Below, piece after piece: positions 22,619 to 62,661 of a DNA stretch of 64,000 nt. The position numbers and the translations under genes were made by a program. This DNA is from Trypanosoma brucei (lineage: Eukaryota), in contig CP000069.1 of NCBI GenBank assembly GCA_000002445.1, forward strand, positions 128,001 to 192,000, read 5' to 3'. The notes under the pieces are model-generated. The model did not search any database. It was not told the origin of the DNA and was given only the letters and a program-made list of their open reading frames with translations. Each line of letters starts with the position of its first letter. Position 1 is the first letter of the stretch.

Positions 22619-22978
22619 CAAGCGATAACTACATCAATGCCGGATCCATATTTCGTAATGAAATGTCAGTAGCAAAGAAAACAACGACACACATGAAATA
22701 CATATACGTGTTTGTGTGACACCATTACCTACCAGCGTGTCGGTTGTCCCTTTCTATCATTTGCTCGCAATTTACAGTGACATCATAAACGAGTCGCCTC
22801 TTGCTACCTTGACGTGCCTTCATTGCTTTTTAAGCATTGTTTTGGTTTTGTCGGGAACTTGTTATAGTATCCAACTGTCTGGAAGTGTAATCTTACTGAT
22901 TTCTATTTTACCTCTTTTGATATTCTTCCTTAGGACATAAGATTTCACACACGAAAAGTGTCACACATTACCGAAAAT
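22619..22978 (+). repeat. U5 5' flank of F2
   Basis: Matches 13207-13553 in reverse complement and 34046-34347 directly. Confidence 0.75.
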
Positions 22979-34045: not shown

Positions 34046-34347
34046 AGAAGCAGCAACGCACATGAAATACATATACGTGTTTGTGTGACACCATTACCTA
34101 CCAGCGTGTCGGTTGTCCCTTTCTATCATTTGCTCGCAATTTACAGTGACATCATAAACGAGTCGCCTCTTGCTACCTTGACGTGCCTTCATTGCTTTTT
34201 AAGCATTGTTTTGGTTTTGTCGGGAACTTGTTATAGCATCCAACTGTCTGGAAGTGTAATCTTACTGATTTCTATTTTCCCTCTTTTGATATTCTTCCTT
34301 AGGACATAAGATTTCACACACGAAAAGTGTCACACATTACCGAAAAT
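34046..34347 (+). repeat. U5 5' flank of F3
   Basis: Same flank as the other U5 copies. Confidence 0.75.
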
Positions 34348-42300: not shown

Positions 42301-42809
42301 TCACTGCACTTGGTGATGTTGCACTTCGTGGCGTGAATGATCATGTGGAAATGTACCAGTTGAATGCCGTGCCTGGTCGCAACTTTGCTGCATTACGGCT
42401 GGAACGTGAACTCTTTGATGAAGACGAGGATGGCACGACAACCTCCACCAGCGACCACAGTTCTTCACGTGCGGAGCTGAGTGAATCAGCACAATCGATA
42501 TTGAACTCACTGCAGTCTGTTTTCCGAACTTTTAAAGCAGCGCAACGGGGGAGTCTTCTGGCGTCGCTTTGTGAGCGTTGGCGTGTGCCTCTTCCCCGTG
42601 AAGCTGCATTCGAGTGGGATGACGCCTACTGTGAGGAAGTGGTGCGTCGCATTGCAGTTAAGGTTGGGCGTGTCGCTGACCGTAGCGCTCAAAGTGGAAG
42701 CAGTGAAGCTTCTGTGAGTACTGAAGAGGGCTCAATCATAATTGTTCCATTCGTTGGTTCACATTTCAGAGAAGGCCACTTTGGGTGTTCGCTTCCGTCG
42801 TTACATTAG
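39320..42809 (+). pseudogene. P3: degenerate divergent adenylate cyclase paralog, N-terminal half fragmented, C-terminal TM+cyclase half open
   Basis: Fragment ORFs 39345-39593, 39791-39976, 40063-40323, 40345-40578, 40786-41049 in different frames, each homologous in order to the F ectodomain, then the 575-codon frame 41082-42809. Confidence 0.75.
41082..42809 (+). CDS. TM + cyclase catalytic domain frame of P3 (575 codons from a non-ATG start; first in-frame ATG about 109 codons in)
   Basis: TM IAAIAVGFVVILVPLVTVLVVVIL plus cyclase motifs. The tail is QRGSLLASLCERWRVPLPREAAFEWDDAYCEEVVRRIAVKVG, homologous to but divergent from the F tail. Confidence 0.55.
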   Translation: MRDKLSTACEVLVVGLIPYNIPIILFHPNKHRNAHVFVLFFDDAPIHGELVSAFHEEPFSNRLLFATNLSHRRDKITESKTVREFRKIVQNESKWKPLSLLGSAIAYAMGSVLQCMGRLETSVRTKLDLRRSTVVNCGAMHIFVWSMSHVLNPFVSSALSSATLSVTYDEPRWIQQITEQIAAIAVGFVVILVPLVTVLVVVILATHRNARDNNLAPKEQTDPVTLIFTDIESSTALWAAHPELMPVAVATHHYLIRSLIGRYKCYEVKTVGDSFMIASKSPFAAVQLAQELQLCFLQHDWGTNAVDDSYWEFEQQRAEEDEKYTPPTARLDLKVYSRLWNGLRVRVGIHTGLCDIRHDEVTKGYDYYGRTPNMAARTESVANGGQVLITHEVYMSFSAEEREQIDVTALGDVALRGVNDHVEMYQLNAVPGRNFAALRLERELFDEDEDGTTTSTSDHSSSRAELSESAQSILNSLQSVFRTFKAAQRGSLLASLCERWRVPLPREAAFEWDDAYCEEVVRRIAVKVGRVADRSAQSGSSEASVSTEEGSIIIVPFVGSHFREGHFGCSLPSLH

Positions 42810-45407
42810 TGGTAGTGTTGCACGTCATAAAGCGTACAAATCTCTTAGTTTTACTCGGCGGAAAAGTTAATTAGCATACCGATTGTAGTAGTTGTTAGTG
42901 AATTTTAACGTAGTCTCGGTAGGGTTTGTCTTTTGTATCTATTTTTATCTTTTGCCATCTATTTATTATTACATTTTTTACATTCTATTTTTGGTGGCTG
43001 CTGCCTCTGCATTAAAGCACATACTAATCTTAAGAGGGAACATGCCCTCTGTTAGATTACACATGCGTTGTCTTTCAAGACACTGAATTAACACATGCAT
43101 GTGTTTTGCCGTGTCAGCGCCGGTTGGTTTCTTACTGTTCCAAATCCGACACTTATGGAAGACAGGACGGCTCAACATTTCTTCTAATTTAACCAAAACG
43201 TTTTTGTTCTGTGAGTAATCACAAAATGGGATTAGCTATGTACTTTCCCTAAGGGCTCTCTTTTTTATTTGTGTCCTTGCCATTTGAGGCTTTAAGAAAA
43301 GTAAGGTGAAACATTTCTTTTTCAACACGTCTGTCCTTAAGCGTGCGAGTGCATGACTATTTTTTTTAAACATTCCACCTCTCACGCCCAATCCCGCAGC
43401 CTTTCGGGTACAAAACTGTGTTTCCGTGTGTGTCTGCGTCACGTTTTTCTTTTTGAATCCACTTAATGCTAGCGGTGTCTTTAAATATTTTTTCATAATG
43501 AGTGTTATGTTGCATGTGTGTATGTATGTGTTGGGTGTTATGTGGGCTGTTGTATCTCTCTCTTCGGATATACAACCCTTATCACCCTCTGCATTGATGT
43601 TACATGTTGTTTCACCAGTTGCATGCTTTTTTCCCCTTCACTCATTTGTGTTGCCGTAAGGATTTAAGGTATGCGATTGCCTCCATTCCCTCCAGAGTGT
43701 GATGTCGATGCATGGGCTTAGTTATGCACTGAAACCCGCGTTGCCTCGCAGTATAACAAAGTTCCTTCACCATCACAGTTATTGCAGCTTATACTAATTA
43801 TAGTATTGTGAGGGAGTTTTGTAACACGTTCACTCTGTTAATATTGCTGAGCCTATAATATCCTTCTGTTATTTACAACACTGTTTGGACACCCGAGGGG
43901 AGTGCAGAAATGCCGCTCCTTTATAGGGACAAACCTCATTTATCCGTATTTTGTGGTAATTCAAGACTGAACCCTTGACGTTTTAACTGTGTGATGAGGA
44001 GCTACGACGAGTTGTGGCGGGAGGGAGCGTCTACGTCGCTGCAGTGTGTAACCTCAACTGAGCATTTGGCATAACCTCTACATGCTTCCCTTTACATCAT
44101 GTGTGTTTGCGTGCATGGGCTCTGATTGTTACTTGCGCATATCTGCCGCCCTCACTTGGGGCTTTTCCCCCCATGCAGGAGTGTACGCACTGGCAGCCGC
44201 TTTGGAGTATCAAAAATACTGCTACGTGCTGAAGATATTATTTGGGAAGGGAACAAATGGAGGGAAAGACTGTCGACCTTCAGGGGGAAAGGATAAACTC
44301 ACCTGAATCGCAGCGGAACTCGTGCGGCTGCAGGCATCCAACCTTTTTCCCTCAAGGGCAATTGTTATCCCTGAGCGGGTTGTTTTATTAATTTTCCAGC
44401 CCTGTATGGCCGGAGTGCGTGTGGTCGCGATGTTTATGTAACTCCTTTTGTTACATCACTTTCCTTCTTTTGTAAACCCCCGTAGTCGCCGGACGCCTCG
44501 TGCCGCATGCGGGCCCGATTAATTTTTTGGTTTGGGAATGAGATTGGAGGTACAAACTCTGATGAGGTCCACTGGCTGATCGCTGCTGCGTTGCTTAGAT
44601 GCGTTTTTATTATTCCTTACTTCTTTCCAACGCTACGTGGAGAAGGTGTGGTGACGGTGGCAGCAACTGTTGGAAGTGCGAAAAAGAGGGCTCAATCATT
44701 TCAAAGTGGAAAGGGGCCCATTACCCGGAATTGAAAACTCATCTGATCGCGAACGGCGTTTGGGTTGCGACCAGGAAATGAAATTTGTGTTACGGTCCAA
44801 ATACGAAACTTGTTGGGTGGACCCAAGGAAAGAAATAAAATGGATAAATACATGCTCTCTGCTGCATGAGACCCGGAATATGAGGAAAATGGTGCGAATG
44901 GATGTGGAGGGTGTGTCTAACCGGATGAGTGAGTGACGACGCAACAACACGAAGATGAATGAAGGAAAAGGGAGGAGTGACAATGCATCCCAAAAGGCAG
45001 ATGATTGATGTCATAAGAGGGGACCAAGTGTTTCCGCATGATTGCGGCGTCTGCAAGTAAAGTAGGGTACAAAGGAGAAAAAAAAAGAGAAAGCGGAACT
45101 GGATGAGATTCGGTTCTTCCGTCGCGCATGTTCTTACGCCCTTCTTCCACTGCATGTGCTATGCGACATTCGTGCCCGAGGGGAAACTTTTCCCGTCTGC
45201 AAAGCGCCTTTAAGAAGTATATGAGAGGAACAACCAGCCAAGCAGCCACACAAAAGGCGAAGGACACAACAGAAATTATTAAGAGCCGAGACGCATTAGC
45301 CGAGGTAGACGCTGGCGGAAGCAAAACAACAAACAAGTGACTGCGGCACTGAAATAAGAAACAATCCAAACTCTTGCCCCACATCACACTTAAATACTTC
45401 CTTGCGA
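42810..45407 (+). repeat. S spacer copy 3 (terminal copy; departs from the consensus at 45407 and runs into the B repeat)
   Basis: Identical to 31444-34045 up to ...acttccttgc, after which the U5/F unit is absent and the B repeat follows. Confidence 0.75.
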
Positions 45408-45419
45408 AAAAGAAGAAAA

Positions 45420-46485: not shown

Positions 46486-47343
46486 TTACATAATCGAGCA
46501 TCCCGCATTTTTTCCTCCAGCGCCTTCCCCATACTCAAGATCATCTCTATAACTTTTATCTGCGTTCCTTTCAACCGAACCCACGGCAGCAGTTGGCTTT
46601 ATTTTGTGCCGCTTGAGGAGATGCCCTTCAAATGCGTCAGTTGCGGGGAACTGCTCGCGGCACACCGGGCAACGGAATAGCACGGGGTTGGGGACACACA
46701 CAAAGAGAGAATCGGGATGCTCCGCGGCAAAGTGGTCGTAGAGCAACCCGCTGGCAGTGAAGCCCTTGCGGCACACCGGGCAGCAAAGAAGTCTTCCGGC
46801 CGCATCAGGCGCCTCAACTATTACCGGGGAGGTTTGCTTCAATTTCTTCTGCAACTCCTCCCGTAACTGCCGCGCCTCCTCGACCTCAGTGCGCAGAATC
46901 GACTGGTGCAACGTTTCGCGCGCGCGTTCCACTTCGGCCTTCAGTCGCCGCACCTCCGCTTCAAAATCAACAGGTTTATCCATTTTTGCTTCCTCCTTTC
47001 TTGCCGCCCCCTTTTTGGACTCATCTTTCTTTGGCGCGTTCGTTTTCCCCACACGTGTCTTCGATTCCGCTCCTTTCGACGCCTCGCCCCTCCGTGTTGC
47101 AACTCCTTTTCGTTCAGTTCGTGTTGGCGACGCATCCTTTGGATCATTTTTTCTCTGCCCATCGTTTCCCCCTAATTTGGGACTTCTTGCCTCTCCTTCC
47201 CCTGGTCCGTCTTGCCTTTGGTTCTCCGCTTCCACCCTTGGCGCTCTCCGCTCCCGTGCCGGCTTGATGCCTTCCCTCGTCTGAGAAGTGCCCTTTTCAG
47301 CATCTTGGAGGGAAATAATCGGCGATACGGCTTGAATCGTCAT
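46486..47343 (-). CDS. C2H2 zinc-finger protein (two C-x2-C-x12-H-x4-H fingers; Lys/Arg/Glu-rich N-terminal region with predicted coiled coil)
   Basis: 285-aa ORF with a genuine ATG (revcomp cat 47341-47343). Fingers CPVCRKGFTASGLLYDHFAAEH and CPVCREQFPATDAFEGHLLKRH. The heptad-like stretch EAEVRRLKAEVERARETLHQSILRTEVEEARQLREELQKKLKQ. Confidence 0.7.
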   Translation of the reverse strand: MTIQAVSPIISLQDAEKGTSQTREGIKPARERRAPRVEAENQRQDGPGEGEARSPKLGGNDGQRKNDPKDASPTRTERKGVATRRGEASKGAESKTRVGKTNAPKKDESKKGAARKEEAKMDKPVDFEAEVRRLKAEVERARETLHQSILRTEVEEARQLREELQKKLKQTSPVIVEAPDAAGRLLCCPVCRKGFTASGLLYDHFAAEHPDSLFVCVPNPVLFRCPVCREQFPATDAFEGHLLKRHKIKPTAAVGSVERNADKSYRDDLEYGEGAGGKNAGCSIM

Positions 47344-47684
47344 TTGTTTCGGGAAAGACGAGCAGCAAGAGTTAGACTAAGGAAACCTGATCAGGGGGGT
47401 TTCCTGACAGCGCACTTGTAAAGGAGAACAGTTAAGAATATGGATGTAAAAAGAGAGGGAAATGGGCACGAGAAGGTGGGAGCACATGGATGCAGCGGGG
47501 AAGCGAATTTAAAGATGTAAGAGAAACAATACTGTTCCTGGCGCACGCGAAATACGTATATACGCGTGCTTGTGCGTGTGTGTGTTGATGTGTATATTTC
47601 CGTGCTCAGTTCACGTCAGGCCTTTGGTATCGAAGAACACATTACGAAAGCAAGCCACTGGCGAAACCTGACGATACCATCAGT

Positions 47685-48896
47685 TCACGAAGCCACTACA
47701 TGCGTCACGAAGAAGTCTGACTTGTGCGAGGCATTGAAAAGGACGACGGCGTTCATTACAGGAAACGGAGAGGGTGGTTTCCGTGTGCCCTGAGGGTGCA
47801 GTGGAGGTTGACACTGCGCCAGCAATCTTTTCCCCTTTTGAACGAACTCCATTGGGACAAGTTGTTTATTGTTGCTGTACCTGTCCAGCATCCGCGCGTA
47901 ATCTTCCTCACTGACCCCATGAATAACAACGAAGTTGTTCCGTAGCGGTGTATCGCACTGCTTTCTGTCTATAGCATGGAAGCGACAACATGTCTCAACA
48001 ACGATTGTCACGCTGTCGTCGGTTGCGAGAGAGAGAACGCGTCCGACCATGATGTCTTCATTTTCCATTCGAAAAAGGGTAAGGTTCCTCCGCAGGCGCC
48101 AACTGTACGGTTTCCTAATGAGCGGCCATATCGGCTCGTACGCCACCAACATTTTGGCCATGTCCTTTGAAAGCGTGTATGGTAAGCCGGATGCAACGTA
48201 GTAAGGATCCCCGAGAAAGTTAAGTCAGATATTTCCCCAATAAACGTTCTGACACGGTAACTTGTGCAAGTCAACAAGGTATTGATGCGCATGAACAAAC
48301 GCGTCATCATCACCTTTTGCCACCTAGTTCACACGGGGTAGTAGTCGGACAGCGAGATCATACCACAGGAACACTTTGCGGCTCATAGTGACTTCCGCTT
48401 TTATACCCCGTGTACCGCCATCCCCAATTTTCTTGTTCCGTCCAGGAACACCCTCATTAATTGGAAGCGTAACCATATCCTGCCAACGCAACGCCTCCTC
48501 CTTTAGTTCCGCCGTGTACGTGTGACCGTTACGATGGGGTCGATCAGTGAGGTACAATACAAGCATCTCCCCCGTGAAGTTGTTGCTCTTCTTTGCTACA
48601 ACGTCATGGATCCAGCAAGACGTGTGAAGAATGCGCCGCCTCCGCCTCACACTCGTGTCAGGTGACAGAATACCAAGTGCAACAAGATAGTTCCGCTCCC
48701 TCCATGTTTCCACCACATCAGACGCCACGAACTGCAGGGTTTCCTCTTCGTCATCGGGGAGGACGGGGGAGGAGGGAAAACGTAATGTTTTCCTATGACA
48801 AAACTGTTTTCCCGATGTCCACGGCACACTAACAACATCGCGGTGTAAGGAAACACACGCAGCGATAAGCATCACTAGGTAGAGGGGAAGTAGCAT
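47685..48896 (-). pseudogene. UDP-Gal/UDP-GlcNAc-dependent glycosyltransferase (trypanosome GT67 / beta-1,3-GT-like) with a single continuous reading frame interrupted only by two in-frame stops (TAG 48324-48326, TGA 48225-48227)
   Basis: The ORF-track pieces 48324-48914 and 47685-48161 are in the same frame (both codon sets start at positions divisible by 3). Hand translation across the gap gives ...GIKAEVTMSRKVFLWYDLAVRLLPRVN*VAKGDDDAFVHAHQYLVDLHKLPCQVYWGNI*LNFLGDPYYVASGLPYTLSKDMAKMLVAYEP...ENEDIMVGRVL. From N to C the frame has a signal-anchor (MLLPLYLVMLIAAC), an RRRRILHTSCW (RxxxW) motif, KGDDD, Y-x-x-SG-x-x-Y-x-LS-x-D and ED-x-x-VG motifs in canonical beta3-GT order. The N-terminal piece begins at a GTG in the track; the first in-frame ATG is at 48894-48896. 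Confidence 0.7.
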
Positions 48897-51706
48897 CGTT
48901 ACCACACGACGCACATTAGTTCATTTTATTCCTCTCATTTCTTCGTGGCCAGCGAAGGAAAAAAAAAAAACGACAACGCCATGGAAAAACAGTAATGAGT
49001 CCATGCCAAAAACGTCGCGCCTCCCCAGGAGAACACGAGAGGACGTCCCGTGCCACGCACGCGCACGAAAAAACAAACAAACAAACGGTAATATGCACTC
49101 TTGTAGGGAAGTGAAATGAATATGCTCCCACACTTCTGCTAGAATCAGAATGACTATACCTACCGCTCCAACTCCGGCCGTATGGGTGAAGATGGCTCGG
49201 TTAACATACTCACGTGGATGGTTCACCAAACTTTCAGTCCCCCCCCCCCAGCAGCACAATTCGAAGTGTGTAGCAACCATTGCTATTGTAAGCGCGAATG
49301 TCTTTCATGCTGAACTGTTGACAGGCGGCATTCCATCCAGTTGTCAATATTCCCCCGTTAAATGGCCATAAAAAGGCATAATGCGCGACCCCTCCCAGTA
49401 ACTATCATGTGATCCCACCCGCCAGCGGGGCCCGCGAGCACATAGGGACCACCACTGGATTATTACATGTATCATTTCCCCACTGGACGCAGTGGAATCG
49501 GCGCCGGATGCCATGTCCATGCCCTAAAGGGAGTTTCCTCCTGAACATGAATTGTTCGACGGATGGAATGCTGAAAGAGTTTGGGGGGAATACCTTGTTT
49601 GAGAGTCTGTAGTACATGAGGGTGTGGCAGATGGTTTCGTCCCATTTTTCACTGTTTTTGGAGAAGGTGGATGTTCGATGCGCATATCGCCGGTGGATAG
49701 CACTCCGCTGTGTGGCATTGAACTGCACCACTTTAAAATGCGGTACGTGATGCGATCCGCCTGCTGTGTTGATAAATGCAGTCGCAAAGTCAAGGGTATG
49801 CTCAGTGGTTGTTCAATACGGCCGGATCTTGGAAAAGGAACTCAGAGCAACCACACACCATATAAGGACCCCTTTTTGCACCTACGCCGCTGCCATCTCA
49901 TCGCTGAGACGCTGGAGGTGGAGAATTAGCGGGCCGCAGCGCTGGAGTGCCCGCTCTCGAGCGGCATCGTGGCAGCGGACCACAAAATTACTACGATGTT
50001 ACTCTCATTTCTGTGAGAACACAATGTAGACGTAACACGCTCCCCCAGCCCACCAACTACGACACTCTCAAGTCTTGGGGCAATCTCCACAAAATGCGTA
50101 GCGAAAGCAGCGGAGAGCAGTCACCGCTTTTTGATTCTTCAAAACAGATGCATGGACTGAAGAAAAGCTGCACCAAAGTCCTGTTCTGCGCGCAACTTAC
50201 GTGGTGGAAGGCATAAATTGGCACAACAAACGCACGGAAAGTAGTATGAGCACTTCGTTTTTTCTGACTGTGCCGAATGAGGAGACATCGCATGGTGCAA
50301 ACACCGGAGAGAATAAACGGGGAAAATGTTAAGACAGCACAACAGTGACCGAGCACAGTGTTCAGAGTAAACCGTCCCGTTCGTACGTTCTGAAATTCCC
50401 GCACAAAGCGCCGTCACTGTTGCTGCTGCATATCGTAGTTGTAGTTATAAAAAATACCAAACCTGACATGCGGCGAAGTGCTCCCACATAGCCCACCAAA
50501 GCTCCTGTTTCTTCTGGCACTTCGTTCCGAAGTTGCCCTATCAGCGTACTCCGCTGAAAAATATTGTCCGTAACACAATTTTCCGAAAGGAACTGCGACA
50601 GCATATGCCGCCGAGAACACCGACAACCAGGACTACGAATGGCATTTTGCTGCGCCTGGGAAACGCGTTCTACAGCGGGAACAGCAACGTGCCGCGACGC
50701 TGCTGACTTCAAACCGTCTGGTGAACGTAACCCCTTTGAACTAACAGGCACATATCGACGCAGGTAAAGCGCTGACAACATCCGAGCATCCGATCTATTG
50801 ACATTCTATCTCTTTGCTTAAGTTACAATCAACGAGGTGGACAGTTTACAACAATAACAATGAACTATCCTTTCAACTCATGTATAGTGCTTGGTCAATT
50901 GCCTTCACTTGGTCCTTTCCACGATCTGTACCGGACCCAGCAACACACAACGGTACAAGCGGATATTTTCAATCCGTAAAGACAGTGACACTACCAGTAA
51001 TACGTGTCAGCAATATACCTGTCTTTGCACCCGCGTTACATTCCACAGTTCAAACCGTCCCAGTTTGCTGTTGTTTTCCATATATCACAGCGCCCTGCAG
51101 CAGGGCAGTGAAGAGAACGACCATCCGTGCGAAGCCGCATGCCGTCATGCTTATCTCAGTGCCCATTGTTAGTATTACTTGCTTGTCAGTCTATGGGTCG
51201 CGCGTGAAAGAAAACAGGTTAGGAAGAGTAAGCACAAAACAAGGTGAACAAGGAAGATGATCACATCGCAATTGACCTGCATTGTAGAAACACCGCCCCG
51301 TTAAAATACGCGGAGAGTGATGAAGATATTGATCTGCTACACGAAATAGAACGCTACAAGGGAAAAGCAAAAACAGAGGAAAACACGATGCGCGGAAGCG
51401 GCCTCATTCACACGTCCAATGGAGCTCTGAACAGGGTGCGCAATTCCGCAATACCCCTGAGGGAGGGGAAATAAATAGGAATAGAGGAACAAATGGTTTT
51501 ATAACTGACACTTAATAGGCTCTCACTTAGCATCTTAGAGGAAATGGATGTTCATAAAATCGCTCACATAAAAAAAAGATAAAACGAAAATAAAACGATT
51601 AGTGGAAGTTGTTCTACTAGTTGCGTGTTATGGGCCAAACGAGTATCTACCCGTATCTTGTTATGGCTTATATGAGTAACACTGCACAGCCGGTAGGCCG
51701 CACAAG

Positions 51707-52657
51707 TCAGCACACAATTGCGAGGGAAAAAAAGACGATGAGTAGACACAATTCACCACCTACACAGATCGTAATGTGCGACAAGGAAGTCAATGTCGTC
51801 TCCGCCTCTCCTTTTGGTTTGGGAGTTGCCGAAGGTTGATCTTGAGAATTTGTAGACTCCTCATCTGAATGCAAACTTTCGTTGATTACTGCTAGCTCCT
51901 CATTGGCAGTGGAGTTTCCATTACCTGGAACGGGATGCGATGGCTGTGGAACTGTAACTTCGCAGAGGGCAGCGAAATAAGTTAGTGACTTGTATCCAGG
52001 TGCCTTACCCCCGGGCTTGTTGCCAGAAACTTCGCCGCCATCAAACCAACCGAACCACTTCGTCACGTTAGTGTACCAACCCATCACGTGCAATTGGCCA
52101 TCCTGAGGATAACTTTGCGCAAAAAACGACGGATAACCACCCAATGCGCCTGAACCACTTTTATAAGTGTACGATCCCCGCCAGAATGCAACGCCGTTGC
52201 CCTCTATTCCCGATGCTTCAAACAGACCACTGTTCCATCGGTAGACGCAATTAAGGGAAGTATCGTAGTCTCCTGCTGTGCAACGAATTCCCGCGTCCTG
52301 TGCCGCACTTGCACTGTAAGTGGCATCCCCTCCAAGGTAACTGTAGATAAATGGGCCATCAGCTACACCCAAGTGGTAGGCAGTGAGGCGTTCGTTAGTT
52401 GCCTGCGAGTGGTCAGTGGCCAGCGTCCCGCCGGCTTCACGGCAGATATGCACTGAGTTACTGTAGTCTACAAGGTAATCACCTCCATGCCAAAACTTTC
52501 GGTTGGGGAAAAGAATATACTCCTTGACATAGGCAGTTGGGTACACCTTACCAAATGCGAAGAGATGTGATGAACCTGAAAGACATTGCAGCAGGGCAGT
52601 GAAGAGAACGACCATCCGTGCGAAGCCGCATGCCGTCATGCTTATCTCAGTGCCCAT
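51707..52657 (-). CDS. secreted/surface glycoprotein, 316 aa: N-terminal signal peptide, ~230-aa Trp/Tyr/Gly-rich globular region with 4 Cys (weak C-type-lectin-like spacing), acidic Ser/Thr-rich stalk, C-terminal hydrophobic segment with no cytoplasmic tail (GPI-signal-like); tandem copy 1
   Basis: True ATG (revcomp cat 52655-52657). Signal peptide MGTEISMTACGFARMVVLFTALLQCLSG. N-glycosylation sequons NVTK, NGNST, NEST. C-terminus ...TSLSHITICVGGELCLLIVFFSLAIVC. Confidence 0.7.
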   Translation of the reverse strand: MGTEISMTACGFARMVVLFTALLQCLSGSSHLFAFGKVYPTAYVKEYILFPNRKFWHGGDYLVDYSNSVHICREAGGTLATDHSQATNERLTAYHLGVADGPFIYSYLGGDATYSASAAQDAGIRCTAGDYDTSLNCVYRWNSGLFEASGIEGNGVAFWRGSYTYKSGSGALGGYPSFFAQSYPQDGQLHVMGWYTNVTKWFGWFDGGEVSGNKPGGKAPGYKSLTYFAALCEVTVPQPSHPVPGNGNSTANEELAVINESLHSDEESTNSQDQPSATPKPKGEAETTLTSLSHITICVGGELCLLIVFFSLAIVC

Positions 52658-53197
52658 TGTTAGTATTACTTGCTTGTCAGTCTATGGGCCGCGCGTGAAA
52701 GAAAACAGGTTAGGAAGAGTAAGCACAAAACAAGGTGAACAAGGAAGATGATCACATCGCAATTGACCTGCATTGTAGAAACACCGCCCCGTTAAAATAC
52801 GCGGAGAGTGATGAAGATATTGATCTGCTACACGAAATAGAACGCTACAAGGGAAAAGCAAAAACAGAGGAAAACACGATGCGCGGAAGCGGCCTCATTC
52901 ACACGTCCAATGGAGCTCTGAACAGGGTGCGCAATTCCGCAATACCCCTGAGGGAGGGGAAATAAATAGGAATAGAGGAACAAATGGTTTTATAACTGAC
53001 ACTTAATAGGCTCTCACTTAGCATCTTAGAGGAAATGGATGTTCATAAAATCGCTCACATAAAAAAAAGATAAAACGAAAATAAAACGATTAGTGGAAGT
53101 TGTTCTACTAGTTGCGTGTTATGGGCCAAACGAGTATCTACCCGTATCTTGTTATGGCTTATATGAGTAACACTGCACAGCCGGTAGGCCGCACAAG

Positions 53198-54148
53198 TCA
53201 GCACACAATTGCGAGGGAAAAAAAGACGATGAGTAGACACAATTCACCACCTACACAGATCGTAATGTGCGACAAGGAAGTCAATGTCGTCTCCGCCTCT
53301 CCTTTTGGTTTGGGAGTTGCCGAAGGTTGATCTTGAGAATTTGTAGACTCCTCATCTGAATGCAAACTTTCGTTGATTACTGCTAGCTCCTCATTGGCAG
53401 TGGAGTTTCCATTACCTGGAACGGGATGCGATGGCTGTGGAACTGTAACTTCGCAGAGGGCAGCGAAATAAGTTAGTGACTTGTATCCAGGTGCCTTACC
53501 CCCGGGCTTGTTGCCAGAAACTTCGCCGCCATCAAACCAACCGAACCACTTCGTCACGTTAGTGTACCAACCCATCACGTGCAATTGGCCATCCTGAGGA
53601 TAACTTTGCGCAAAAAACGACGGATAACCACCCAATGCGCCTGAACCACTTTTATAAGTGTACGATCCCCGCCAGAATGCAACGCCGTTGCCCTCTATTC
53701 CCGATGCTTCAAACAGACCACTGTTCCATCGGTAGACGCAATTAAGGGAAGTATCGTAGTCTCCTGCTGTGCAACGAATTCCCGCGTCCTGTGCCGCACT
53801 TGCACTGTAAGTGGCATCCCCTCCAAGGTAACTGTAGATAAATGGGCCATCAGCTACACCCAAGTGGTAGGCAGTGAGGCGTTCGTTAGTTGCCTGCGAG
53901 TGGTCAGTGGCCAGCGTCCCGCCGGCTTCACGGCAGATATGCACTGAGTTACTGTAGTCTACAAGGTAATCACCTCCATGCCAAAACTTTCGGTTGGGGA
54001 AGAGAATATACTCCTTGACATAGGCAGTTGGGTACACCTTACCAAATGCGAAGAGATGTGATGAACCTGAAAGACATTGCAGCAGGGCAGTGAAGAGAAC
54101 GACCATCCGTGCGAAGCCGCATGCCGTCATGCTTATCTCAGTGCCCAT
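53198..54148 (-). CDS. secreted/surface glycoprotein, tandem copy 2 (identical to copy 1)
   Basis: Identical 316-aa translation; same repeat unit. Confidence 0.7.
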   Translation of the reverse strand: MGTEISMTACGFARMVVLFTALLQCLSGSSHLFAFGKVYPTAYVKEYILFPNRKFWHGGDYLVDYSNSVHICREAGGTLATDHSQATNERLTAYHLGVADGPFIYSYLGGDATYSASAAQDAGIRCTAGDYDTSLNCVYRWNSGLFEASGIEGNGVAFWRGSYTYKSGSGALGGYPSFFAQSYPQDGQLHVMGWYTNVTKWFGWFDGGEVSGNKPGGKAPGYKSLTYFAALCEVTVPQPSHPVPGNGNSTANEELAVINESLHSDEESTNSQDQPSATPKPKGEAETTLTSLSHITICVGGELCLLIVFFSLAIVC

Positions 54149-54420
54149 TGTTAGTATTACTTGCTTGTCAGTCTATGGGCCGCGCGTGAAAGAAAACAGG
54201 TTAGGAAGAGTAAGCACAAAACAAGGTGAACAAGGAAGATGATCACATCGCAATTGACCTGCATTGTAGAAACACCGCCCCGTTAAAATACGCGGAGAGT
54301 GATGAAGATATTGATCTGCTACACGAAATAGAACGCTACAAGGGAAAACATAGTTGGAAGGTGAGAGTGGCAGTAAATACTAAGAGCATGGAGAAAAAAC
54401 ACATAAAAAAATATAATGTA

Positions 54421-55706
54421 AAGGGAAGCATGTAGAGGTTATGCCAAATGTTCAGTTGAGGTTACACACTGCAGCGACGTAGACGCTCCCTCCCGCCACA
54501 ACTCGTCGTAGCTCCTCATCGCACAGTTAAAACGTCAAGGGTTCAGTCTTGAATTACCACAAAATACGGATAAATGAGGTTTGTCCCTATAAAGGAGCGG
54601 CATTTCTGCACTCCCCTCGAGTGTCCAAACAGTGTTGTAAATAACAGAAGGATATTATAGGCTCAGCAATATTAACAGAGTGAACGTGTTACAAAACTCC
54701 CTCACAATACTATAATTAGTATAAGCTGCAATAACTGTGACTGTGAAGGAACTTTGTTATACTGCGAGGCAACGCGGGTTTCAGCACATAACTAAGCTCA
54801 TGCATCGACATCACACTCTGGAGGGAATGGAGGCAATCACATACCTTAAATCCTTACGGCAACACAAATGAGTGAAGGGAAAGAAAGCATGCAACTGGTG
54901 AAACAACATGTAACATCAGCAATGCAGAGGGTGATAAGGGTTGTATATCCGAAGAGAGAGATACAACAGCCCACATAACACCCAACACATACAAACACAC
55001 ATGCAACATAACACTCATTATGAAAAAATATTTAAAGACATCGCTAGCATTAAGTGGATTCAAAAAGAAAAACGTGACGCAGACACACACGGAAACACAG
55101 TTTTGTACCCGAAAGGCTGCGGGATTGGGCGTGAGAGGTGGAATGTTTAAAAAAAATAGTCATGCACTCGCACGCTTAAGGACAGACGTGTTGAAAAAGA
55201 AATGTTTCACCTTATTTTTCTTAAAGCCTCAAATGGCAAGGACAAAAATAAAAAAGAGAGCCCTTAGGGAAAGTACATAGCTAATCCCATTTTGTGATTA
55301 CTCACAGAACAAAAACGTTTTGGTTAAATTAGAAGAAATGTTGAGCCGTCCTGTCTTCCATAAGGGTCGGATTTGGAACAGTAAGAAACCAACCGGCGCT
55401 GACACGGCAAAACACATGCATGTGTTAATTCAGTGTCTTGAAAGACAACGCATGTGTAATCTAACAGAGGGCATGTTCCCTCTTAAGATTAGTATGTGCT
55501 TTAATGCAGAGGCAGCAGCCACCAAAAATAGAATGTAAAAAATGTAATAATAAATAGATGGCAAAAGATAAAAATAGATACAAAAGACAAACCCTACCGA
55601 GACTACGTTAAAATTCACTAACAACTACTACAATCGGTATGCTAATTAACTTTTCCGCCGAGTAAAACTAAGAGATTTGTACGCTTTATGACGTGCAACA
55701 GTACCA
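54421..55706 (-). repeat. S spacer, truncated fourth copy (distal ~1.3 kb only), fused at 54421 to the surface-protein tandem repeat
   Basis: Matches 3440-4735 (aagggaagcatgta... onward). The sequence below 54421 belongs to the 1491-bp repeat flank instead of the rest of S. Confidence 0.75.
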
Positions 55707-57434
55707 CTAATGTAACGACGGAAGCGAACACCCAAAGTGGCCTTCTCTGAAATGTGAACCAACGAATGGAACAATTATGATTGAGCCCTCTTCAGTACTC
55801 ACAGAAGCTTCACTGCTTCCACTTTGAGCGCTACGGTCAGCGACACGCCCAACCTTAACTGCAATGCGACGCACCACTTCCTCACAGTAGGCGTCATCCC
55901 ACTCGAATGCAGCTTCACGGGGAAGAGGCACACGCCAACGCTCACAAAGCGACGCCAGAAGATTCCCCCGTTGCGCTGCTTTAAAAGTTCGGAAAACAGA
56001 CTGCAGTGAGTTCAATATCGATTGTGCTGATTCACTCAGCTCCGCACGTGAAGAACTGTGGTCGCTGGTGGAGGTTGTCGTGCCATCCTCGTCTTCATCA
56101 AAGAATTCGCGATCCAGCCGTAATGCAGCAAAGTTGCGGCCAGGCACGGCATTCAACTGGTACATTTCCACATGATCATTCACGCCACGAAGTGCAACAT
56201 CACCAAGTGCAGTGACATCAATTTGCTCACGCTCCTCAGCTGACAGTGACATGTAAACCTCATGCGTTATCAGCACCTGACCACCATTTGCTACACTCTC
56301 TGTCCTTGCTGCCATGTTTGGAGTGCGCCCATAGTAGTCATATCCCTTCGTCACTTCATCGTGTCGGATGTCGCACAACCCGGTGTGGATTCCAACACGT
56401 ACACGCAGGCCATTCCACAAACGACTGTACACTTTAGGGTCCAACCGCGCAGTTGGCGGTGTGTACTTCTCGTCCTCCTCCGCACGCTGCTGCTCAAATT
56501 CCCAGTAGGACTCATCAATCGCATTTGTTCCCCAGTCATGCTGCAAGAAACACAGCTGTAGTTCCTGTGCGAGTTGGACGGCAGCGAAAGGACTCTTACT
56601 CGCTATCATGAACGAATCCCCTACAGTCTTGACTTCGTAGCACTTATACCTCCCAATCAGTGAACGAATCAAATAGTGATGTGTTGCAACGGCAACAGGC
56701 ATCAGATCAGGGTGTGCAGCCCACAACGCAGTGCTGCTCTCAATGTCAGTAGATATTAGTGTCACGGGGTCAGTTGGTTCCTTGGGTGCAAGATTGTTAT
56801 CACGAGCATTCCGGTGTGTTGCTAATATAACAACCACAAGAACCGTAACAAGCGGCACCAACATTACGACGAAGCCAACTGCAATAGCGGCAATTTGCTC
56901 AGTTATCTGTTGGATCCATCTCGGTTCATCATAGGTCACTGACAGTGTGGCAGACGACAGCGCAGAGGACACAAAAGGGTTTAGAACATGTGACATCGAC
57001 CATACAAAAATATGCATCGCACCACAGTTGACAACAGTGCTTCGCCTCAAGTCAAGTTTCGTTCGTACACTTGTCTCCAAACGACCCATACATTGCAGGA
57101 CACTTCCCATTGCGTAAGCGATGGCAGACCCACGTAGTGACAATGGCTTCCACTTCGACTCATTCTGCACGATCTTGCGGAACTCACGTACTGTTTTGGA
57201 CTCCGTGATCTTATCCCTCCGATGTGACAGATTCGTTGCGAATAGCAAGGGGTTAGAAAATGGCTCTTCATGGAAGGCATTCACGAGTTCGCCGTGGATT
57301 GGTGCATCATCGAAGAACAGGACGAAGACGTGCGCATTACGGTGCTTGTTAGGGTGAAAGAGGATTATGGAGATATTATATGGGATAAGACCTACAACCA
57401 ATACCTCACATGCAGTTGACAGCTTGTCTCTCAA
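55707..57434 (-). CDS. TM + cyclase catalytic domain frame of P4 (575 codons from a non-ATG start)
   Basis: Cyclase motifs present. Has the unusual substitution ISTDIESS where other copies have IFTDIESS. Confidence 0.5.
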   Translation of the reverse strand: MRDKLSTACEVLVVGLIPYNISIILFHPNKHRNAHVFVLFFDDAPIHGELVNAFHEEPFSNPLLFATNLSHRRDKITESKTVREFRKIVQNESKWKPLSLRGSAIAYAMGSVLQCMGRLETSVRTKLDLRRSTVVNCGAMHIFVWSMSHVLNPFVSSALSSATLSVTYDEPRWIQQITEQIAAIAVGFVVMLVPLVTVLVVVILATHRNARDNNLAPKEPTDPVTLISTDIESSTALWAAHPDLMPVAVATHHYLIRSLIGRYKCYEVKTVGDSFMIASKSPFAAVQLAQELQLCFLQHDWGTNAIDESYWEFEQQRAEEDEKYTPPTARLDPKVYSRLWNGLRVRVGIHTGLCDIRHDEVTKGYDYYGRTPNMAARTESVANGGQVLITHEVYMSLSAEEREQIDVTALGDVALRGVNDHVEMYQLNAVPGRNFAALRLDREFFDEDEDGTTTSTSDHSSSRAELSESAQSILNSLQSVFRTFKAAQRGNLLASLCERWRVPLPREAAFEWDDAYCEEVVRRIAVKVGRVADRSAQSGSSEASVSTEEGSIIIVPFVGSHFREGHFGCSLPSLH

Positions 57435-59200
57435 AATAGGACCTTCACCACTCGCAACAAAGAAGCTTAGTGATGTGTTAAAGTTGTCAAGTGTTTTTGC
57501 AACATATTCCTAATTCCTCTCGTATCACCACCACGACACACAATGAAATGCATCCTTCCTGCACCATTTTGTATAATATGCTCAACTATCATAAATAACT
57601 GCTGCTCATTTGTTGGTAACAGGTGGATCACATTCCTTCTGGGGTTACTCGGTTGTGATGTGAGTATTATAGGATCGATGAATGCCATACCCTTCGTCCG
57701 TAGTAACGAATTATCCACGACACCAAGCACAGCAGTTACAACTCGTTTCTCAACATCATTATACAGAGTTGCAGAAGCTTCGTAAAATTTCGAGGATAGT
57801 CAGTGTAAAAAGAAACTATCAGAGACCCAGTTGACCTTTGCCAACAACATGAGGGACACCATCGTATACCATCTATGCAGTACGCAGTGCCTTTGGGTCA
57901 TCGGTTATATTAAACATGACCCCACTCAATGGGCCCTACAACTGTGGCAGGTCTCGATAACAGCGAGATGAACCAAGGGTTAATATAGCTTCCTTCATAG
58001 GGTGCAGATGGAGATCCTTTTCCACCTTCTTCACGCACATCACACTCCCACCTTGGTTACGTAAACACGATACACCCCGCTCTCCCGCCTTATTACGGCA
58101 CTCACCACCAAAGTCACCAACCACAATATTATCAATTGGATAACGACGTTTATTGTACAGTGATTTCATAAATACACCCCTGCTAGTTAGCTATTCGTGA
58201 CAACTCAGTGCCTGTTTCAATACCTCCCCAGCAACCCATCTGTTCAATGTCAGCTCAGCTTCAGCGTCTTGCTCGGTGAAGTTATTTTCGTTAATATCCC
58301 ACCTTGTGCGCTTATAGTTATTACCATTAACCTTTAACAACATAGTCATATCATCTCTGAAACGCCTGACAGCTTTGTATGTGTCACCCTTCGTAATTAG
58401 GTCAGCCCCAGTTATTATTATCTTAGCAGCCACAAACTCGTCTCTACCCAATTTATATGCCCACTTGTTCTTGATGGCGTGTTGGAGTGCAGAGGGTGTA
58501 TGAATAAATATTCGCCTCTTGTCCTGTGGTCATATAATCATTTCATGGGGAATCTCTTCATATCAGGGATTGGAGAACCAAATACAATCATTCCCTGAGG
58601 TCCAGTATCGGCAACCTTATTACACTCCGCACTGAAGCTCCTGTTATCCGATTCCTTATCAAGTTGACTCTTCAATGCAAAAAAAAAAAAATAACAACTA
58701 AACAACTTGCGATTCATCCGTGTTGCCAACTACGCAGCAAGCTTATACTCATCATCACCATAAGAAACATCTTTCAAATACATGAAATCCAGTCGGTGTG
58801 ACCGTAACTGAGTGATAGCATAACGGAAAAGAGCAAGCATCTCAACGGCGAGTGGTGCTTCCAGGAGGTATAAATTGGGATTCCAACTGTGTACCCTACT
58901 GAATCCTGTGAAAGGTAAGAAATCAACTACGCATTCTTTTCATTGAAATATTTGGTTAAGTTGAGAGTATTTTTGTCACCCACAGATTCCAGTATAATAG
59001 CAAACTCATCACCGTAATTGGTTGTACAGATGGCGTATCCAAAGTCATCCAGAGACGGAACATATGCAACTGCCACACTGACACACGGAAGCGACTTCCC
59101 GTTGGTAATAGATGCGTTGAAACCTGCAATAATAGGATCACATACCTTTGCTGAGATCTTGTCACTGTATAACATGTTGCATACCCTTACCCATAATAAT
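55707..59200 (-). pseudogene. P4: degenerate divergent adenylate cyclase paralog (N-terminal half fragmented, C-terminal half open); copy homology ends abruptly at 59297
   Basis: Same ordered fragment ORFs as the other P copies (58927-59175, 58538-58729, 58191-58451, 57936-58169, 57467-57730) plus the 575-codon frame 55707-57434. Confidence 0.75.
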
Positions 59201-59297
59201 CCATTTGCAAGCTATACTTCAGCCAGCAGCTGTAGTAACATAGAAAAACACTACGTAAGTGACTACGCCATCTCTAGCATGTAATTCACGCATGGGG

Positions 59298-60780
59298 TGA
59301 CTGTAGGCGTGAGTCGCACGATGAACGGCGCGTGTCGATTCCCTGAATCCATTTCTTGGTAAAATTTAGGGGCTGCATTTGGATGCAGTGCGATCACACG
59401 AAGTAGCTGCGTTTCCCGTTGAACCAAAGCACATAACTTACATCGACAATCCTTTGTAGCAGTGCGGAGGCCCGCGCTCGGCCATGCCGACCCGCTGAAG
59501 TCGATCTTCGTCGGGGGGGGGGGAGGGGAACGGTTTTTTATTTGCCCTCCACGCTCAACTTTGACAACGTCAAAGGGCGTAGTTGGAGGTGTCGGGACAC
59601 GCCTGGCTTCGCAGAGCGCTTGTTTGCCTTCCAATTGGATACTGAGGACATCCTTGGTGGTGGGGAAGTGCCTCAACTAAGGGCGGAGTGAACGGTTTCT
59701 TGACATTGCTTTTTTCTCATTTTCACGGGGATGCCGCGCCATTCAATCCGTTTGGAGAACCATGTAGATCCTTTCCTCGTGGGGACGCCAACCGGGCAGG
59801 GCGCACGTGCCGGTGCCTCAGTCGCCTTCCTCTGCGGGTTGGCTAATTTAGTAGATGCCCCTTGGGGTTTTGGGAGGTGGTGCTGCGGTGCCACTGGGCG
59901 TGGTGACGCCTTGATCACCCTTGAGGATTGGGAGGGGCAAGTGGTGTGGCGATGGCCGCTTACCCGCGCCGTGGCTGACATTCTTTTAGCTTTCGGGGTT
60001 GCGTTAGCTGCCGCGCGGTGCCAAAAAAGTGCTAAGGGGAGGGATAATGTGGCCTTCAACCTCGCTCGGGGCGTTGGGCGCGTACAGCGCGTTTGGAAGA
60101 AGTGGCTTCCGCCGTCTGGGGTGCCGGTGGCGTGTGCCTCGTGCGGTTGGTTTTTCTCTTCAGGAGATGGGACTGATCAATGCTTGGGGGTTAGAACTTC
60201 TGTCTCCTTGTGTTCGCTTGTGGGGAGCTAGTGGGGCGCAGGCCGCCCGCTAGCAGGAGGTAGCAAAGGTGCGTGGAAGTTCCGGCCACTTTAAAGGATA
60301 TGAAACTGAAGGGGAGATATCGCCTCCAAGGCACCCTAGGGAGTCGCGGTTTAGCAGCACTGTCCCTTGGGGGCTGCTGCCGCATGATCGTGTTGCCGGA
60401 GCCCGCTATTTCGTATCTTCGGGCGCCAGCTGGGGGGGGGGGGGGGCGGCGGGTTTCTCCACTTGGAGACCCCCACCGTGCTCGGGCGCCGTCATTTAAT
60501 CGGCGGTCCCTCGGGAAAGAAAGGGACCTGTATGGGCATTCCGGGTGGGGGGATTTTTTTTTTGTGTGCGCAGGCGCGCTTCAATTGCGTAGTATCAATA
60601 GAAGGATTGAACATCCCCCCTGAAACGAAGTATCAATCGCGTGCTGACACTCGATTCTGTGTTCGTGATACCGGTGTTTGTGCTGAGCGTTGCTTGTACT
60701 GCTTGACTGTGTGGGCCGCACACTGCGGTATGCTTGAGAGGGAAAGAAAAAGAAAGGATATCCTCCACGACGGTTAGAGA
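59298..60780. other. GC-rich island with long G homopolymer runs (G11 at 59513-59523, G15 at 60432-60446, G6+T10 at 60547-60563) and overlapping low-complexity ORFs on both strands; probably non-coding
   Basis: Composition and homopolymers read directly. ORFs 59673-60059(-) and 59731-60231(+) overlap each other, are Ala/Gly/Arg/Pro-rich, and lack recognisable motifs. Confidence 0.5.
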
Positions 60781-62636: not shown

Positions 62637-62661
62637 CACATAAAAAATAAGTAAATACTCC

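What the first reader, a model, noticed from the sequence alone, without database searches (positions are those of the whole stretch)
51096..54348. Perfect 1491-bp tandem repeat duplicates a signal-peptide/GPI-like surface glycoprotein gene; the unit boundary splits the signal peptide from the mature domain
Two complete units plus 271 bp of a third, with no differences found by eye. This points to a very recent duplication or an array that is larger in reality and collapsed in assembly. Each unit encodes a 316-aa protein with a signal peptide, a Trp/Tyr/Gly-rich ~230-aa ectodomain with only 4 Cys and three N-glycosylation sequons, an acidic Ser/Thr-rich stalk, and a C-terminal hydrophobic segment ending the protein (GPI-anchor-signal-like). 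The ectodomain has a C...GG.LA...E..(L/F) ... W.W/YRW...G spacing loosely like a C-type-lectin-like fold, but this is weak. The repeat boundary (51096/52587) falls inside the signal-peptide coding region. Each gene's first 24 codons therefore come from the neighbouring unit, and an orphan signal-peptide exon-like stub (51096-51169, minus strand) is left at the array end.
Basis: partly seen in the sequence, partly recalled or inferred. Interest (0 to 1): 0.6.

Follow-up and report, generated by a model that had tools for sequence, protein, structure and literature searches.

The report
Known trypanosome IGP34 two-gene array
The repeat is real, but it is the already published two-copy IGP34 gene pair (Tb927.6.380 and its twin) on Trypanosoma brucei chromosome 6, encoding a C-type-lectin-like secretory glycoprotein, so it is ordinary apart from an unsettled question about how the protein is anchored in the membrane.

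Summary
The 1491-bp tandem repeat at 51096-54348 is real: 2.18 units, with 2 differences in 1762 compared positions, so it is near-perfect rather than perfect. It holds two identical 316-aa genes on the minus strand, plus a 271-bp third piece made of 200 bp of 5' flank and codons 1-24.

The window is T. brucei brucei TREU927 chromosome 6. The protein is 100% identical to two adjacent annotated GenBank entries. It hits Pfam PF16825 ("IGP family C-type lectin domain") at E=4e-73. It is the published IGP34 subfamily of Allison et al. 2014, described there as "two genes" with Tb927.6.380 as representative. That paper's IGP34 primers match both copies exactly.

The "boundary splits the signal peptide" is the truncated end of the array, not an exon-like module. 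T. b. gambiense has one gene plus the same stub. The stub and the gene 5' ends evolve in concert, which fits unequal crossing-over.

"Surface/GPI" is unproven. IGP34 does lack the transmembrane-plus-tail module of its relatives, and it has never been localised.

Verdict: already known, low interest.

The parts
51096..54348 (-). Tandem repeat: 2.18 units of 1491 bp, 99.9% identical
   Evidence: Period-1491 self-identity with 2 mismatches in 1762 positions. Also found by the repeat finder and self-megablast.
53198..54148 (-). IGP34 gene copy A (316 aa; upstream copy in the direction of transcription)
   Evidence: ORF. 100% identical to AAZ11602.1/AAZ11603.1, T. brucei TREU927. Published IGP34 qRT-PCR primers match exactly at 53723-53742 and 53344-53363.
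51707..52657 (-). IGP34 gene copy B (316 aa; identical protein, one synonymous difference from copy A)
   Evidence: ORF. Synonymous Leu49 CTT/CTC difference. Primers match at 52232-52251 and 51853-51872.
51096..51166 (-). Stub: codons 1-24 of a truncated third copy. It reads on into unrelated sequence and stops after 38 codons.
   Evidence: tblastn residues 1-24 at 100%. Translation. The same stub with the same breakpoints is present in T. b. gambiense.
54149..54348 (-). 200-bp 5' flank of copy A. It starts at a pyrimidine run followed by AG (TTTTCCCTTGTAG), a putative trans-splice acceptor region. Repeated at 52658-52857 and 51167-51366.
   Evidence: Sequence read. Five-way alignment. The splice-acceptor role is inferred, not tested.
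52658..53197 (-). 540-bp intergenic segment (3' UTR of copy A plus 5' flank of copy B). Repeated at 51167-51706.
   Evidence: Sequence. It lies inside the repeat.
51959..52477 (-). C-type-lectin-like domain (PF16825/DUF5075, residues 61-233) of copy B. The same domain in copy A is at 53450-53968.
52571..52657 (-). Predicted signal peptide (about residues 1-29) of copy B. Copy A: 54062-54148.
   Evidence: Hydropathy peak at residues 14-22, followed by SGSS. The extent is by rule of thumb only, as no SignalP was available. Allison et al. report a predicted signal for all 20 IGPs.
51710..51775 (-). C-terminal hydrophobic segment (residues 295-316, ITICVGGELCLLIVFFSLAIVC) that ends the protein, copy B. 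Copy A: 53201-53266.
   Evidence: Hydropathy. Predicted helix 294-315. No residue follows it, unlike the TM-CC-basic-PM.LRE module of the homologues.
54413..59298 (-). Context: a 4.9-kb block carrying a truncated GRESAG4-type adenylate cyclase ORF (55707-57434). It lies 64 bp upstream of the array and is one of four copies in the window.
   Evidence: Self-megablast. Pfam Guanylate_cyc plus partial periplasmic-binding-protein-like domain.

Best explanation
**What it is.** The repeat is the IGP34 locus of Trypanosoma brucei brucei TREU927 chromosome 6. It is a head-to-tail pair of identical genes (Tb927.6.380 and its neighbour), followed by the 5' fragment of a truncated third copy.

**Expression (inferred).** From general trypanosome biology, both genes would be transcribed on the minus strand as part of one polycistronic unit. 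That unit runs from the strand switch near 60 kb to the one near 45 kb. Each copy carries its own pyrimidine-tract/AG region 200 bp upstream, for trans-splicing.

**The protein.** Each product enters the ER through an N-terminal signal peptide. It folds into a C-type-lectin-like domain held by four family-conserved cysteines. It carries up to three N-glycans and an acidic stalk, and it is held in the membrane by a C-terminal hydrophobic segment.

**Published biology (Allison et al. 2014).**
- IGP34 mRNA rises about 10-fold in stumpy forms.
- Growth slows within 24 h of inducing IGP34 RNAi, according to the figure legend, although that figure's title names only IGP40 and IGP48.
- The relatives IGP40 and IGP48 are ER-resident.
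- IGP34 itself was never localised.

**How the array arose (inferred).** The array is maintained, and its copy number changed, by unequal crossing-over or gene conversion. The substrate is the 271-bp direct repeat formed by each gene's 5' end and the stub.

**Shown versus inferred.** Shown here: identity of the genes, family membership, fold of the model, array anatomy, the cross-subspecies comparison. Inferred: splice sites, disulfides, recombination mechanism, protein function.
For: **Identity**
- The protein is 100% identical over 316 aa to two consecutive GenBank entries of T. brucei TREU927, on a 1,618,915-bp contig.
- Its mass of 33.9 kDa equals the value given for Tb927.6.380.
- The N-terminal 60 residues printed for Tb927.6.380 in the paper's supplement are identical. 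The supplement says IGP34 is 'two genes'.
- Both published IGP34 primers match both copies with 0 mismatches, and nowhere else in the window at up to 2 mismatches.

**Family**
- PF16825 at E=4.2e-73 against a cut-off of 22.6 bits.
- Only 25 cluster representatives in 1.84 billion proteins.

**Fold**
- AlphaFold model with pLDDT 82.8 and pTM 0.82.
- C72, C126, C137 and C232 are conserved across the family.

**Array dynamics**
- T. b. gambiense DAL972 has one gene plus the same 271-bp stub, with identical breakpoints.
- At five sites both gambiense copies differ from all three TREU927 copies, which means the copies are homogenised within each genome.
- Paralogues differ by 0.07%, against about 1.4% between orthologues.

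**Published biology**
- Tandem arrays, stumpy up-regulation and RNAi growth curves are in PMC4497807.
Against: - The exact gene number of the second copy (probably Tb927.6.390) was not seen in any tool output.
- IGP34 departs from the family description 'type I membrane protein with cytoplasmic domain'. It has no cytoplasmic residues and lacks the W..NWY-TM-CC-basic-PM.LRE module of its complete homologues.
- Its ER location is assumed from relatives. C-terminally HA-tagged IGP34 gave no signal.
- The one-copy state in T. b. gambiense could be an assembly collapse rather than biology.
- The literal Ca2+/sugar-binding tripeptides of classical C-type lectins (EPN, QPD, WND) are absent. The position-equivalent YPQ and WFD were assigned by eye. 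'Lectin' therefore describes the fold, not a shown activity.
Confidence: 0.93

Rival explanations
1. One reading: IGP34 is a GPI-anchored cell-surface glycoprotein. On this view the C-terminal hydrophobic segment is a cleaved GPI-attachment signal, not a transmembrane helix.
For: - The hydrophobic segment runs to the last residue, with no cytoplasmic residue or basic stop-transfer.
- Complete homologues have a quite different C-terminus: TM, a CC motif, basic residues, a conserved PM.LRE motif and a tail.
- Small residues S291 and S293 lie 10-12 residues before the final 14-residue hydrophobic run. This geometry is compatible with an omega site (my reading of the sequence).
- IGP34 tagged with HA at its C-terminus was never detected by blot or microscopy, while IGP40 and IGP48 tagged the same way were. 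That is what cleavage of a GPI signal would produce.
Against: - IGP34 came through a published screen whose last step discarded proteins predicted by GPI-SOM or big-PI to carry a GPI signal.
- The 22-residue stretch 295-316 is long enough to span a membrane and is modelled as one helix.
- Failure to detect the tag can equally reflect low expression in slender bloodstream forms, since the mRNA is about 10-fold higher in stumpy forms.
- No GPI predictor or biochemical test could be run here.
Confidence: 0.22
2. The copy number is an assembly artefact. The true array in TREU927 would then be longer and collapsed, or shorter and falsely duplicated.
For: - Near-identical 1.5-kb units are hard to assemble.
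- The T. b. gambiense assembly shows a different number, one gene plus the stub.
- The IGP paper notes that array expansion and contraction is likely in this family.
Against: - Each repeat copy is marked by its own single-base difference: one specific to the stub copy, one that tells gene A from gene B. This argues for distinct sequenced copies rather than a duplicated consensus.
- Both genes are separately annotated in GenBank and counted as two in the literature.
- No reads were available to test depth.
Confidence: 0.12
3. The breakpoint inside the signal-peptide coding region marks a functional module. On this view an exon-like, separately mobile signal-peptide cassette is joined to mature domains, or the stub encodes a functional 38-aa peptide.
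For: - The stub keeps an intact 5' flank, ATG and hydrophobic N-terminus, and an open 38-codon frame.
- It is conserved with identical breakpoints in T. b. gambiense.
Against: - The breakpoint (codon 24/25) lies inside the hydrophobic core, not at the predicted cleavage site near residue 29-30.
- The sequence downstream of the stub has no similarity to the unit or to IGP34.
- Conservation of the stub is explained by gene conversion from the neighbouring genes.
- Trypanosome protein-coding genes are, with very few exceptions, intron-less (established knowledge).
- The phase of a tandem repeat is arbitrary, so no gene 'borrows' codons from a neighbouring unit.
Confidence: 0.02

Closest known systems
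IGP34 subfamily of the trypanosomatid invariant glycoprotein (IGP) family (Allison et al. 2014, Microb Cell 1:325, PMC4497807; Pfam PF16825/DUF5075); representative Tb927.6.380
   Same: It is the same genes. The protein sequence, mass (33.9 kDa), primer sites, chromosome, two-gene count, signal peptide, C-type-lectin-like domain and N-glycosylation sequons all agree.
   Different: Nothing differs in sequence. Added here: the anatomy of the array (stub, 271-bp flanking repeat, concerted evolution with the T. b. gambiense comparison); a structure-based confirmation of the fold; and the observation that IGP34 lacks the TM/cytoplasmic module of the rest of the family.
IGP48 and IGP40 subfamilies (ER-resident type I membrane glycoproteins of T. 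brucei)
   Same: They share the DUF5075 C-type-lectin-like domain with four conserved Cys, YP..G and W(Y/F)D motifs, a signal peptide and a Thr/Asn-rich stalk, and they also sit in tandem arrays.
   Different: IGP34 is shorter and has no DENTTV/TRIM repeat region. It has no W..NWY pre-TM motif, no CC/basic stop-transfer and no PM.LRE cytoplasmic motif or tail. Its location is unknown, whereas IGP40 and IGP48 co-localise with BiP.
Classical Ca2+-dependent C-type lectin domains (Pfam PF00059; e.g. tetranectin 1HTN, collectin-11 4YLI, SP-D 1PW9)
   Different: Only 17-20% identity to these three chains. There is no PF00059 hit at E <= 1. The EPN, QPD and WND tripeptides are absent; YPQ and WFD stand at what look like the equivalent positions (equivalence assigned by eye). 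The second Cys pair (C126, C137) lies in the long-loop region rather than at beta3/beta4. The domain is about 40-60 residues larger. Sugar binding is untested.
Other T. brucei tandem surface-gene arrays whose copy number varies between strains (e.g. Fam1 on chromosome 6; Jackson et al. 2013, PMC3605285)
   Same: A near-identical tandem array in TREU927 is represented by a single gene in the T. b. gambiense DAL972 assembly.
   Different: It is an unrelated protein family (VSG-like, GPI-anchored) with five copies.

Membership tests
IGP family (Pfam PF16825 / DUF5075) | Significant full-length match to the family-defining domain model | tested here: met
   E=4.2e-73, 245.1 bits against a cut-off of 22.6, profile positions 1-173 of 173.
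IGP family (Pfam PF16825 / DUF5075) | N-terminal signal peptide | tested here: met
   A basic residue (R14) is followed by a hydrophobic core at residues 15-26 and then small residues SGSS. This is rule of thumb only, as no SignalP was available. The paper reports a predicted signal for all 20 IGPs.
IGP family (Pfam PF16825 / DUF5075) | C-type-lectin-like ectodomain | tested here: met
IGP family (Pfam PF16825 / DUF5075) | At least one N-glycosylation sequon | tested here: met
   N197 (NVT), N248 (NST), N259 (NES). Occupancy was not tested.
IGP family (Pfam PF16825 / DUF5075) | Type I topology with one transmembrane domain and a cytoplasmic domain | tested here: inconclusive
   One C-terminal hydrophobic segment (295-316) is present, but the protein ends with it. 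The TM-CC-basic-PM.LRE module of complete homologues is absent.
IGP family (Pfam PF16825 / DUF5075) | Restricted to kinetoplastids | tested here: inconclusive
   An exhaustive HMMER search finds only 25 cluster representatives in 1.84 billion proteins. That library gives no organism names. The three named relatives are all T. brucei subspecies.
IGP family (Pfam PF16825 / DUF5075) | ER localisation | not testable with these tools
   Shown for IGP40 and IGP48 only. IGP34-HA could not be detected.
IGP34 subfamily (Tb927.6.380 and paralogue) | Sequence identity with the published representative, and a two-gene count in TREU927 | tested here: met
   The N-terminal sequence in the supplement is identical, and the supplement says 'IGP34 (two genes)'. 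Both IGP34 primers match exactly in both copies. 33.9 kDa. Two GenBank entries carry this exact sequence.
Classical Ca2+-dependent C-type lectin (PF00059) | Match to the Lectin_C profile | tested here: not met
   No PF00059 hit at E <= 1. PDB sequence hits to C-type lectins are only marginal (E 0.002-0.8).
Classical Ca2+-dependent C-type lectin (PF00059) | EPN/QPD and WND Ca2+/carbohydrate-binding motifs | tested here: not met
   None of EPN, QPD, EPS, EPD or WND occurs in the protein. YPQ (183) and WFD (204) stand at what look like the equivalent positions. The family conserves Y-P-x-x-G and W-(Y/F)-D. The positional equivalence was assigned by eye.
GPI-anchored protein | Signal peptide plus a C-terminal hydrophobic tail with no cytoplasmic residues | tested here: met
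GPI-anchored protein | Small omega and omega+2 residues with a short polar spacer before the hydrophobic tail; a positive dedicated predictor | tested here: inconclusive
   S291/S293 are candidates. The spacer HITICVGGE is partly hydrophobic. No predictor is available here. The published pipeline that retained IGP34 removed GPI-SOM and big-PI positives.
GPI-anchored protein | Biochemical evidence of a lipid anchor | not testable with these tools
   No data found. The loss of the C-terminal HA signal is compatible with a cleaved signal but not specific to it.

The most novel reading that the evidence does not exclude
IGP34 differs from the ER-resident IGP40 and IGP48. Its tail-less C-terminal hydrophobic segment is a cleaved GPI-attachment signal. 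IGP34 would then be a GPI-anchored C-type-lectin-like glycoprotein, displayed on or shed from stumpy-form trypanosomes. This would also explain why the published C-terminally tagged protein was never seen.
Probability: 0.2. Interest if true: 0.4.

Novelty: already known. Interest (0 to 1): 0.1.

Why it matters
It matters little as a discovery. The genes are annotated in the reference genome, and the family, its lectin-like domain and its tandem arrays were described in 2014.

The modest value added:
1. A structure-based confirmation that the DUF5075 domain has a C-type lectin fold but lacks the classical Ca2+/sugar motifs.
2. A clean small example of how a truncated gene copy provides a 271-bp direct repeat. 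That repeat lets a trypanosome gene array expand, contract and homogenise.
3. A pointer that IGP34's membrane anchor and location are still open, and could be settled by tagging internally rather than at the C-terminus.

Tried and rejected
- **Tandem Repeats Finder** cannot see a 1491-bp period, because its longest period is 500. The repeat was verified by direct offset comparison instead.
- **The word-indexed protein search** returned only the query's own cluster. Family relatives came only from the exhaustive HMMER search.
- **An exact-sequence look-up of the TREU927 protein** found no contig. The T. b. gambiense orthologue did give a locus.
- **Sensitive blastn and tblastn of the flanks** (47400-51095 and 54349-55700) against the unit and the protein found nothing above chance. 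The sequence after the stub is therefore not a degraded gene copy that I can recognise.
- **The bacterial-type promoter/terminator scan** was at shuffle level. It is irrelevant to a kinetoplastid.
- **Sequence searches of the PDB** gave only marginal C-type lectin hits. On their own they would not have established the fold.
- **The first AlphaFold model** (full length, pLDDT 65.6) and two fold-search jobs were lost on the server. The ectodomain was re-modelled.
- **The Jackson et al. cell-surface phylome text** did not yield the family number for these genes.

Full report
**1. The observation**

Comparing each base with the base 1491 positions further on gives identity from 51096 to 52857, except at two positions. 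The repeat finder and a self-megablast agree. Tandem Repeats Finder is blind to it because its longest period is 500.

The repeat is not quite perfect.
- 51198 T versus 52689 C lies in the 5' flank and marks the stub copy.
- 52511 A versus 54002 G is a synonymous Leu49 change that tells the two genes apart.

Two identical 316-aa ORFs lie on the minus strand at 53198-54148 and 51707-52657. tblastn finds codons 1-24 a third time at 51095-51166.

**2. What it is**

The protein is 100% identical, over its full length, to two consecutively numbered GenBank entries. These are AAZ11602.1 and AAZ11603.1 (XP_845161.1 and XP_845162.1) of Trypanosoma brucei brucei TREU927, on a contig of 1,618,915 bp.

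Pfam gives one hit, PF16825 (DUF5075, 'IGP family C-type lectin domain'), at E=4.2e-73 over the whole model. That family was defined by Allison et al. 2014 (PMC4497807). They found twenty 'invariant glycoprotein' genes in TREU927, in three subfamilies: IGP34, IGP40 and IGP48. They chose Tb927.6.380 to represent IGP34.

Four things tie the window to IGP34:
- the paper's IGP34 qRT-PCR primers each match both copies with no mismatch, and nowhere else in the window at up to 2 mismatches;
- the supplement prints a Tb927.6.380 N-terminus identical to this ORF;
- the supplement states that IGP34 comprises two genes;
- the computed mass of 33.9 kDa equals the value quoted for Tb927.6.380 elsewhere.

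The finding is therefore the complete, already published IGP34 subfamily.

**3. Surroundings**

- The window is a GRESAG4 adenylate-cyclase region.
- An 11.4-kb unit, made of one full-length cyclase plus a 4.9-kb block with a truncated cyclase ORF, is tandemly repeated at 22671-34050 and 34041-45415. It is present inverted at 1-13570.
- A fourth copy of the 4.9-kb block (54413-59298) ends 64 bp upstream of the IGP34 array.
- Downstream on the same strand lies a C2H2 zinc-finger ORF at 46486-47343.
- At the right end, a peptidase M20 gene on the plus strand runs off the window. Its numbering as Tb927.6.400 is my inference from a paper that lists that gene among peptidases.
- Gene orientation and GC skew place the IGP34 genes in a short minus-strand cluster, between strand switches near 60 kb and 45 kb.

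**4. The 'boundary in the signal peptide'**

The phase of a tandem repeat is arbitrary, so no gene takes codons from a neighbouring unit. What is real is where the array ends.

Read in the direction of the genes, the array begins 200 bp upstream of the first ATG, at a pyrimidine run followed by AG (TTTTCCCTTGTAG). It then runs through gene A, a 540-bp spacer, gene B and a second spacer. It stops after codon 24 of a third copy. That copy continues into unrelated sequence and terminates after 38 codons.

The break lies inside the hydrophobic core of the signal peptide, not at the likely cleavage site near residue 29-30. Nothing similar to the rest of the gene or unit follows it. It is a truncated gene copy, not an exon-like module.

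**5. How the array behaves**

The orthologous locus of T. b. gambiense DAL972 (L001) aligns colinearly with the window. It contains one gene, with a 13-residue insertion in the stalk, followed by the same 271-bp piece with the same breakpoints. The stub therefore predates the split of the two subspecies. In gambiense a single gene is flanked by a 271-bp direct repeat.

In a five-way alignment of the 271-bp copies, both gambiense copies differ from all three TREU927 copies at five sites. Within a genome the copies differ at no more than one site. This is the signature of concerted evolution.

The two TREU927 units differ at 1 of 1491 bases (0.07%). Each differs from the gambiense unit at 20-21 bases (about 1.4%).

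The simplest account is unequal crossing-over or gene conversion between the 5' end of the gene and the stub, which adds, removes and homogenises units. This is an inference. It agrees with the paper's remark that IGP arrays probably expand and contract. An assembly collapse in either genome cannot be excluded without reads. Against a false duplication, each TREU927 copy carries its own private base difference.

**6. The protein**

An exhaustive HMMER search of 1.84 billion representatives finds only 25 relatives.

The four cysteines are conserved across the family. The classical Ca2+/carbohydrate tripeptides EPN, QPD and WND are absent. The family conserves Y-P-x-x-G and W-(Y/F)-D at what look, by eye, like the corresponding places. 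The fold is lectin-like, but canonical Ca2+-dependent sugar binding is unlikely. That is an inference.

**7. Surface and GPI?**

This is the only open point. Complete homologues end with a pre-membrane W..NWY motif, a transmembrane helix, a CC motif, basic residues, a conserved PM.LRE motif and a cytoplasmic tail. IGP34 has none of these and stops at the end of ITICVGGELCLLIVFFSLAIVC.

That is either a tail-less transmembrane anchor or a GPI-attachment signal. S291 and S293 would be possible omega and omega+2 residues.

Allison et al. tagged IGP34 at the C-terminus and never detected it, although IGP40 and IGP48 tagged the same way were seen. They state that they have no information on its location. 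Cleavage of a GPI signal would produce that result. So would low expression in slender forms.

Against GPI, IGP34 survived a screen that discarded GPI-SOM and big-PI positives. I could run no predictor. I put GPI anchoring at about 0.2.

**8. Function, as far as known**

From PMC4497807:
- IGP34 mRNA is about 10-fold higher in stumpy forms.
- RNAi reduced the mRNA by about half.
- The figure legend reports a growth defect within 24 h of induction in the RNAi lines for all three subfamilies, although the figure title names only IGP40 and IGP48.
- IGP40 and IGP48 are ER proteins, and IGP48 affects ER morphology.

None of this could be tested here.

**9. Verdict**

It is partly over-read: 'perfect', the signal-peptide module, surface/GPI. 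The feature is already annotated and published, so novelty is nil and interest is low. The one thread worth a bench experiment is the membrane anchor and location of IGP34.

Noticed in passing
window 1-13570, 22671-34050, 34041-45415: An 11.4-kb unit (one full-length GRESAG4-type receptor adenylate cyclase of about 1275-1280 aa plus a 4.9-kb block) is tandemly repeated on the plus strand. It is present once more inverted at the left end, at 96.5-97.5% identity. This forms a very large inverted repeat around the divergent strand-switch region at about 13.6-22.6 kb.
   Followed up: partly
window 3434-8319, 27853-32735, 39221-44100, 54413-59298: There are four copies (97-99% identical) of a 4.9-kb block. 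Each carries a 470-575-aa ORF with only the C-terminal part of the periplasmic-binding-protein-like domain plus the cyclase catalytic domain. The ORFs begin at TTG, so they are open frames rather than real starts. They are probably truncated or frameshifted GRESAG4 pseudogenes. One block ends 64 bp from the IGP34 array.
   Followed up: partly
L001 10001-10990 (T. b. gambiense) versus window 51707-52657: The gambiense IGP34 orthologue is 329 aa because of a 13-residue insertion (GNGNSPANEDEVS) directly before the similar GNGNSTANEELAV. The stalk itself therefore contains a short tandem duplication that varies between subspecies. The T. b. equiperdum entry (227 aa) has a different, shorter N-terminus.
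   Followed up: partly
window 46486-47343 (-): A 285-aa ORF with C2H2/Di19-type zinc-finger hits lies downstream of the IGP34 array on the same strand. It is conserved at the same place in T. b. gambiense (L001 15394-16198).
   Followed up: no
window 62651-64000 (+): A peptidase M20 family gene runs off the right end of the window on the opposite strand to IGP34. This implies a divergent strand switch between about 59.3 and 62.6 kb. It is probably Tb927.6.400, which a 2022 quorum-sensing study lists among the peptidases it over-expressed.
   Followed up: partly
alignment A2, C-terminal columns: Complete IGP homologues share a strikingly conserved juxtamembrane cytoplasmic motif, (P/S)M.LRE, after a CC-rich end of the transmembrane helix. 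IGP34 lacks it. I saw no comment on the motif in the parts of the IGP paper I read.
   Followed up: no
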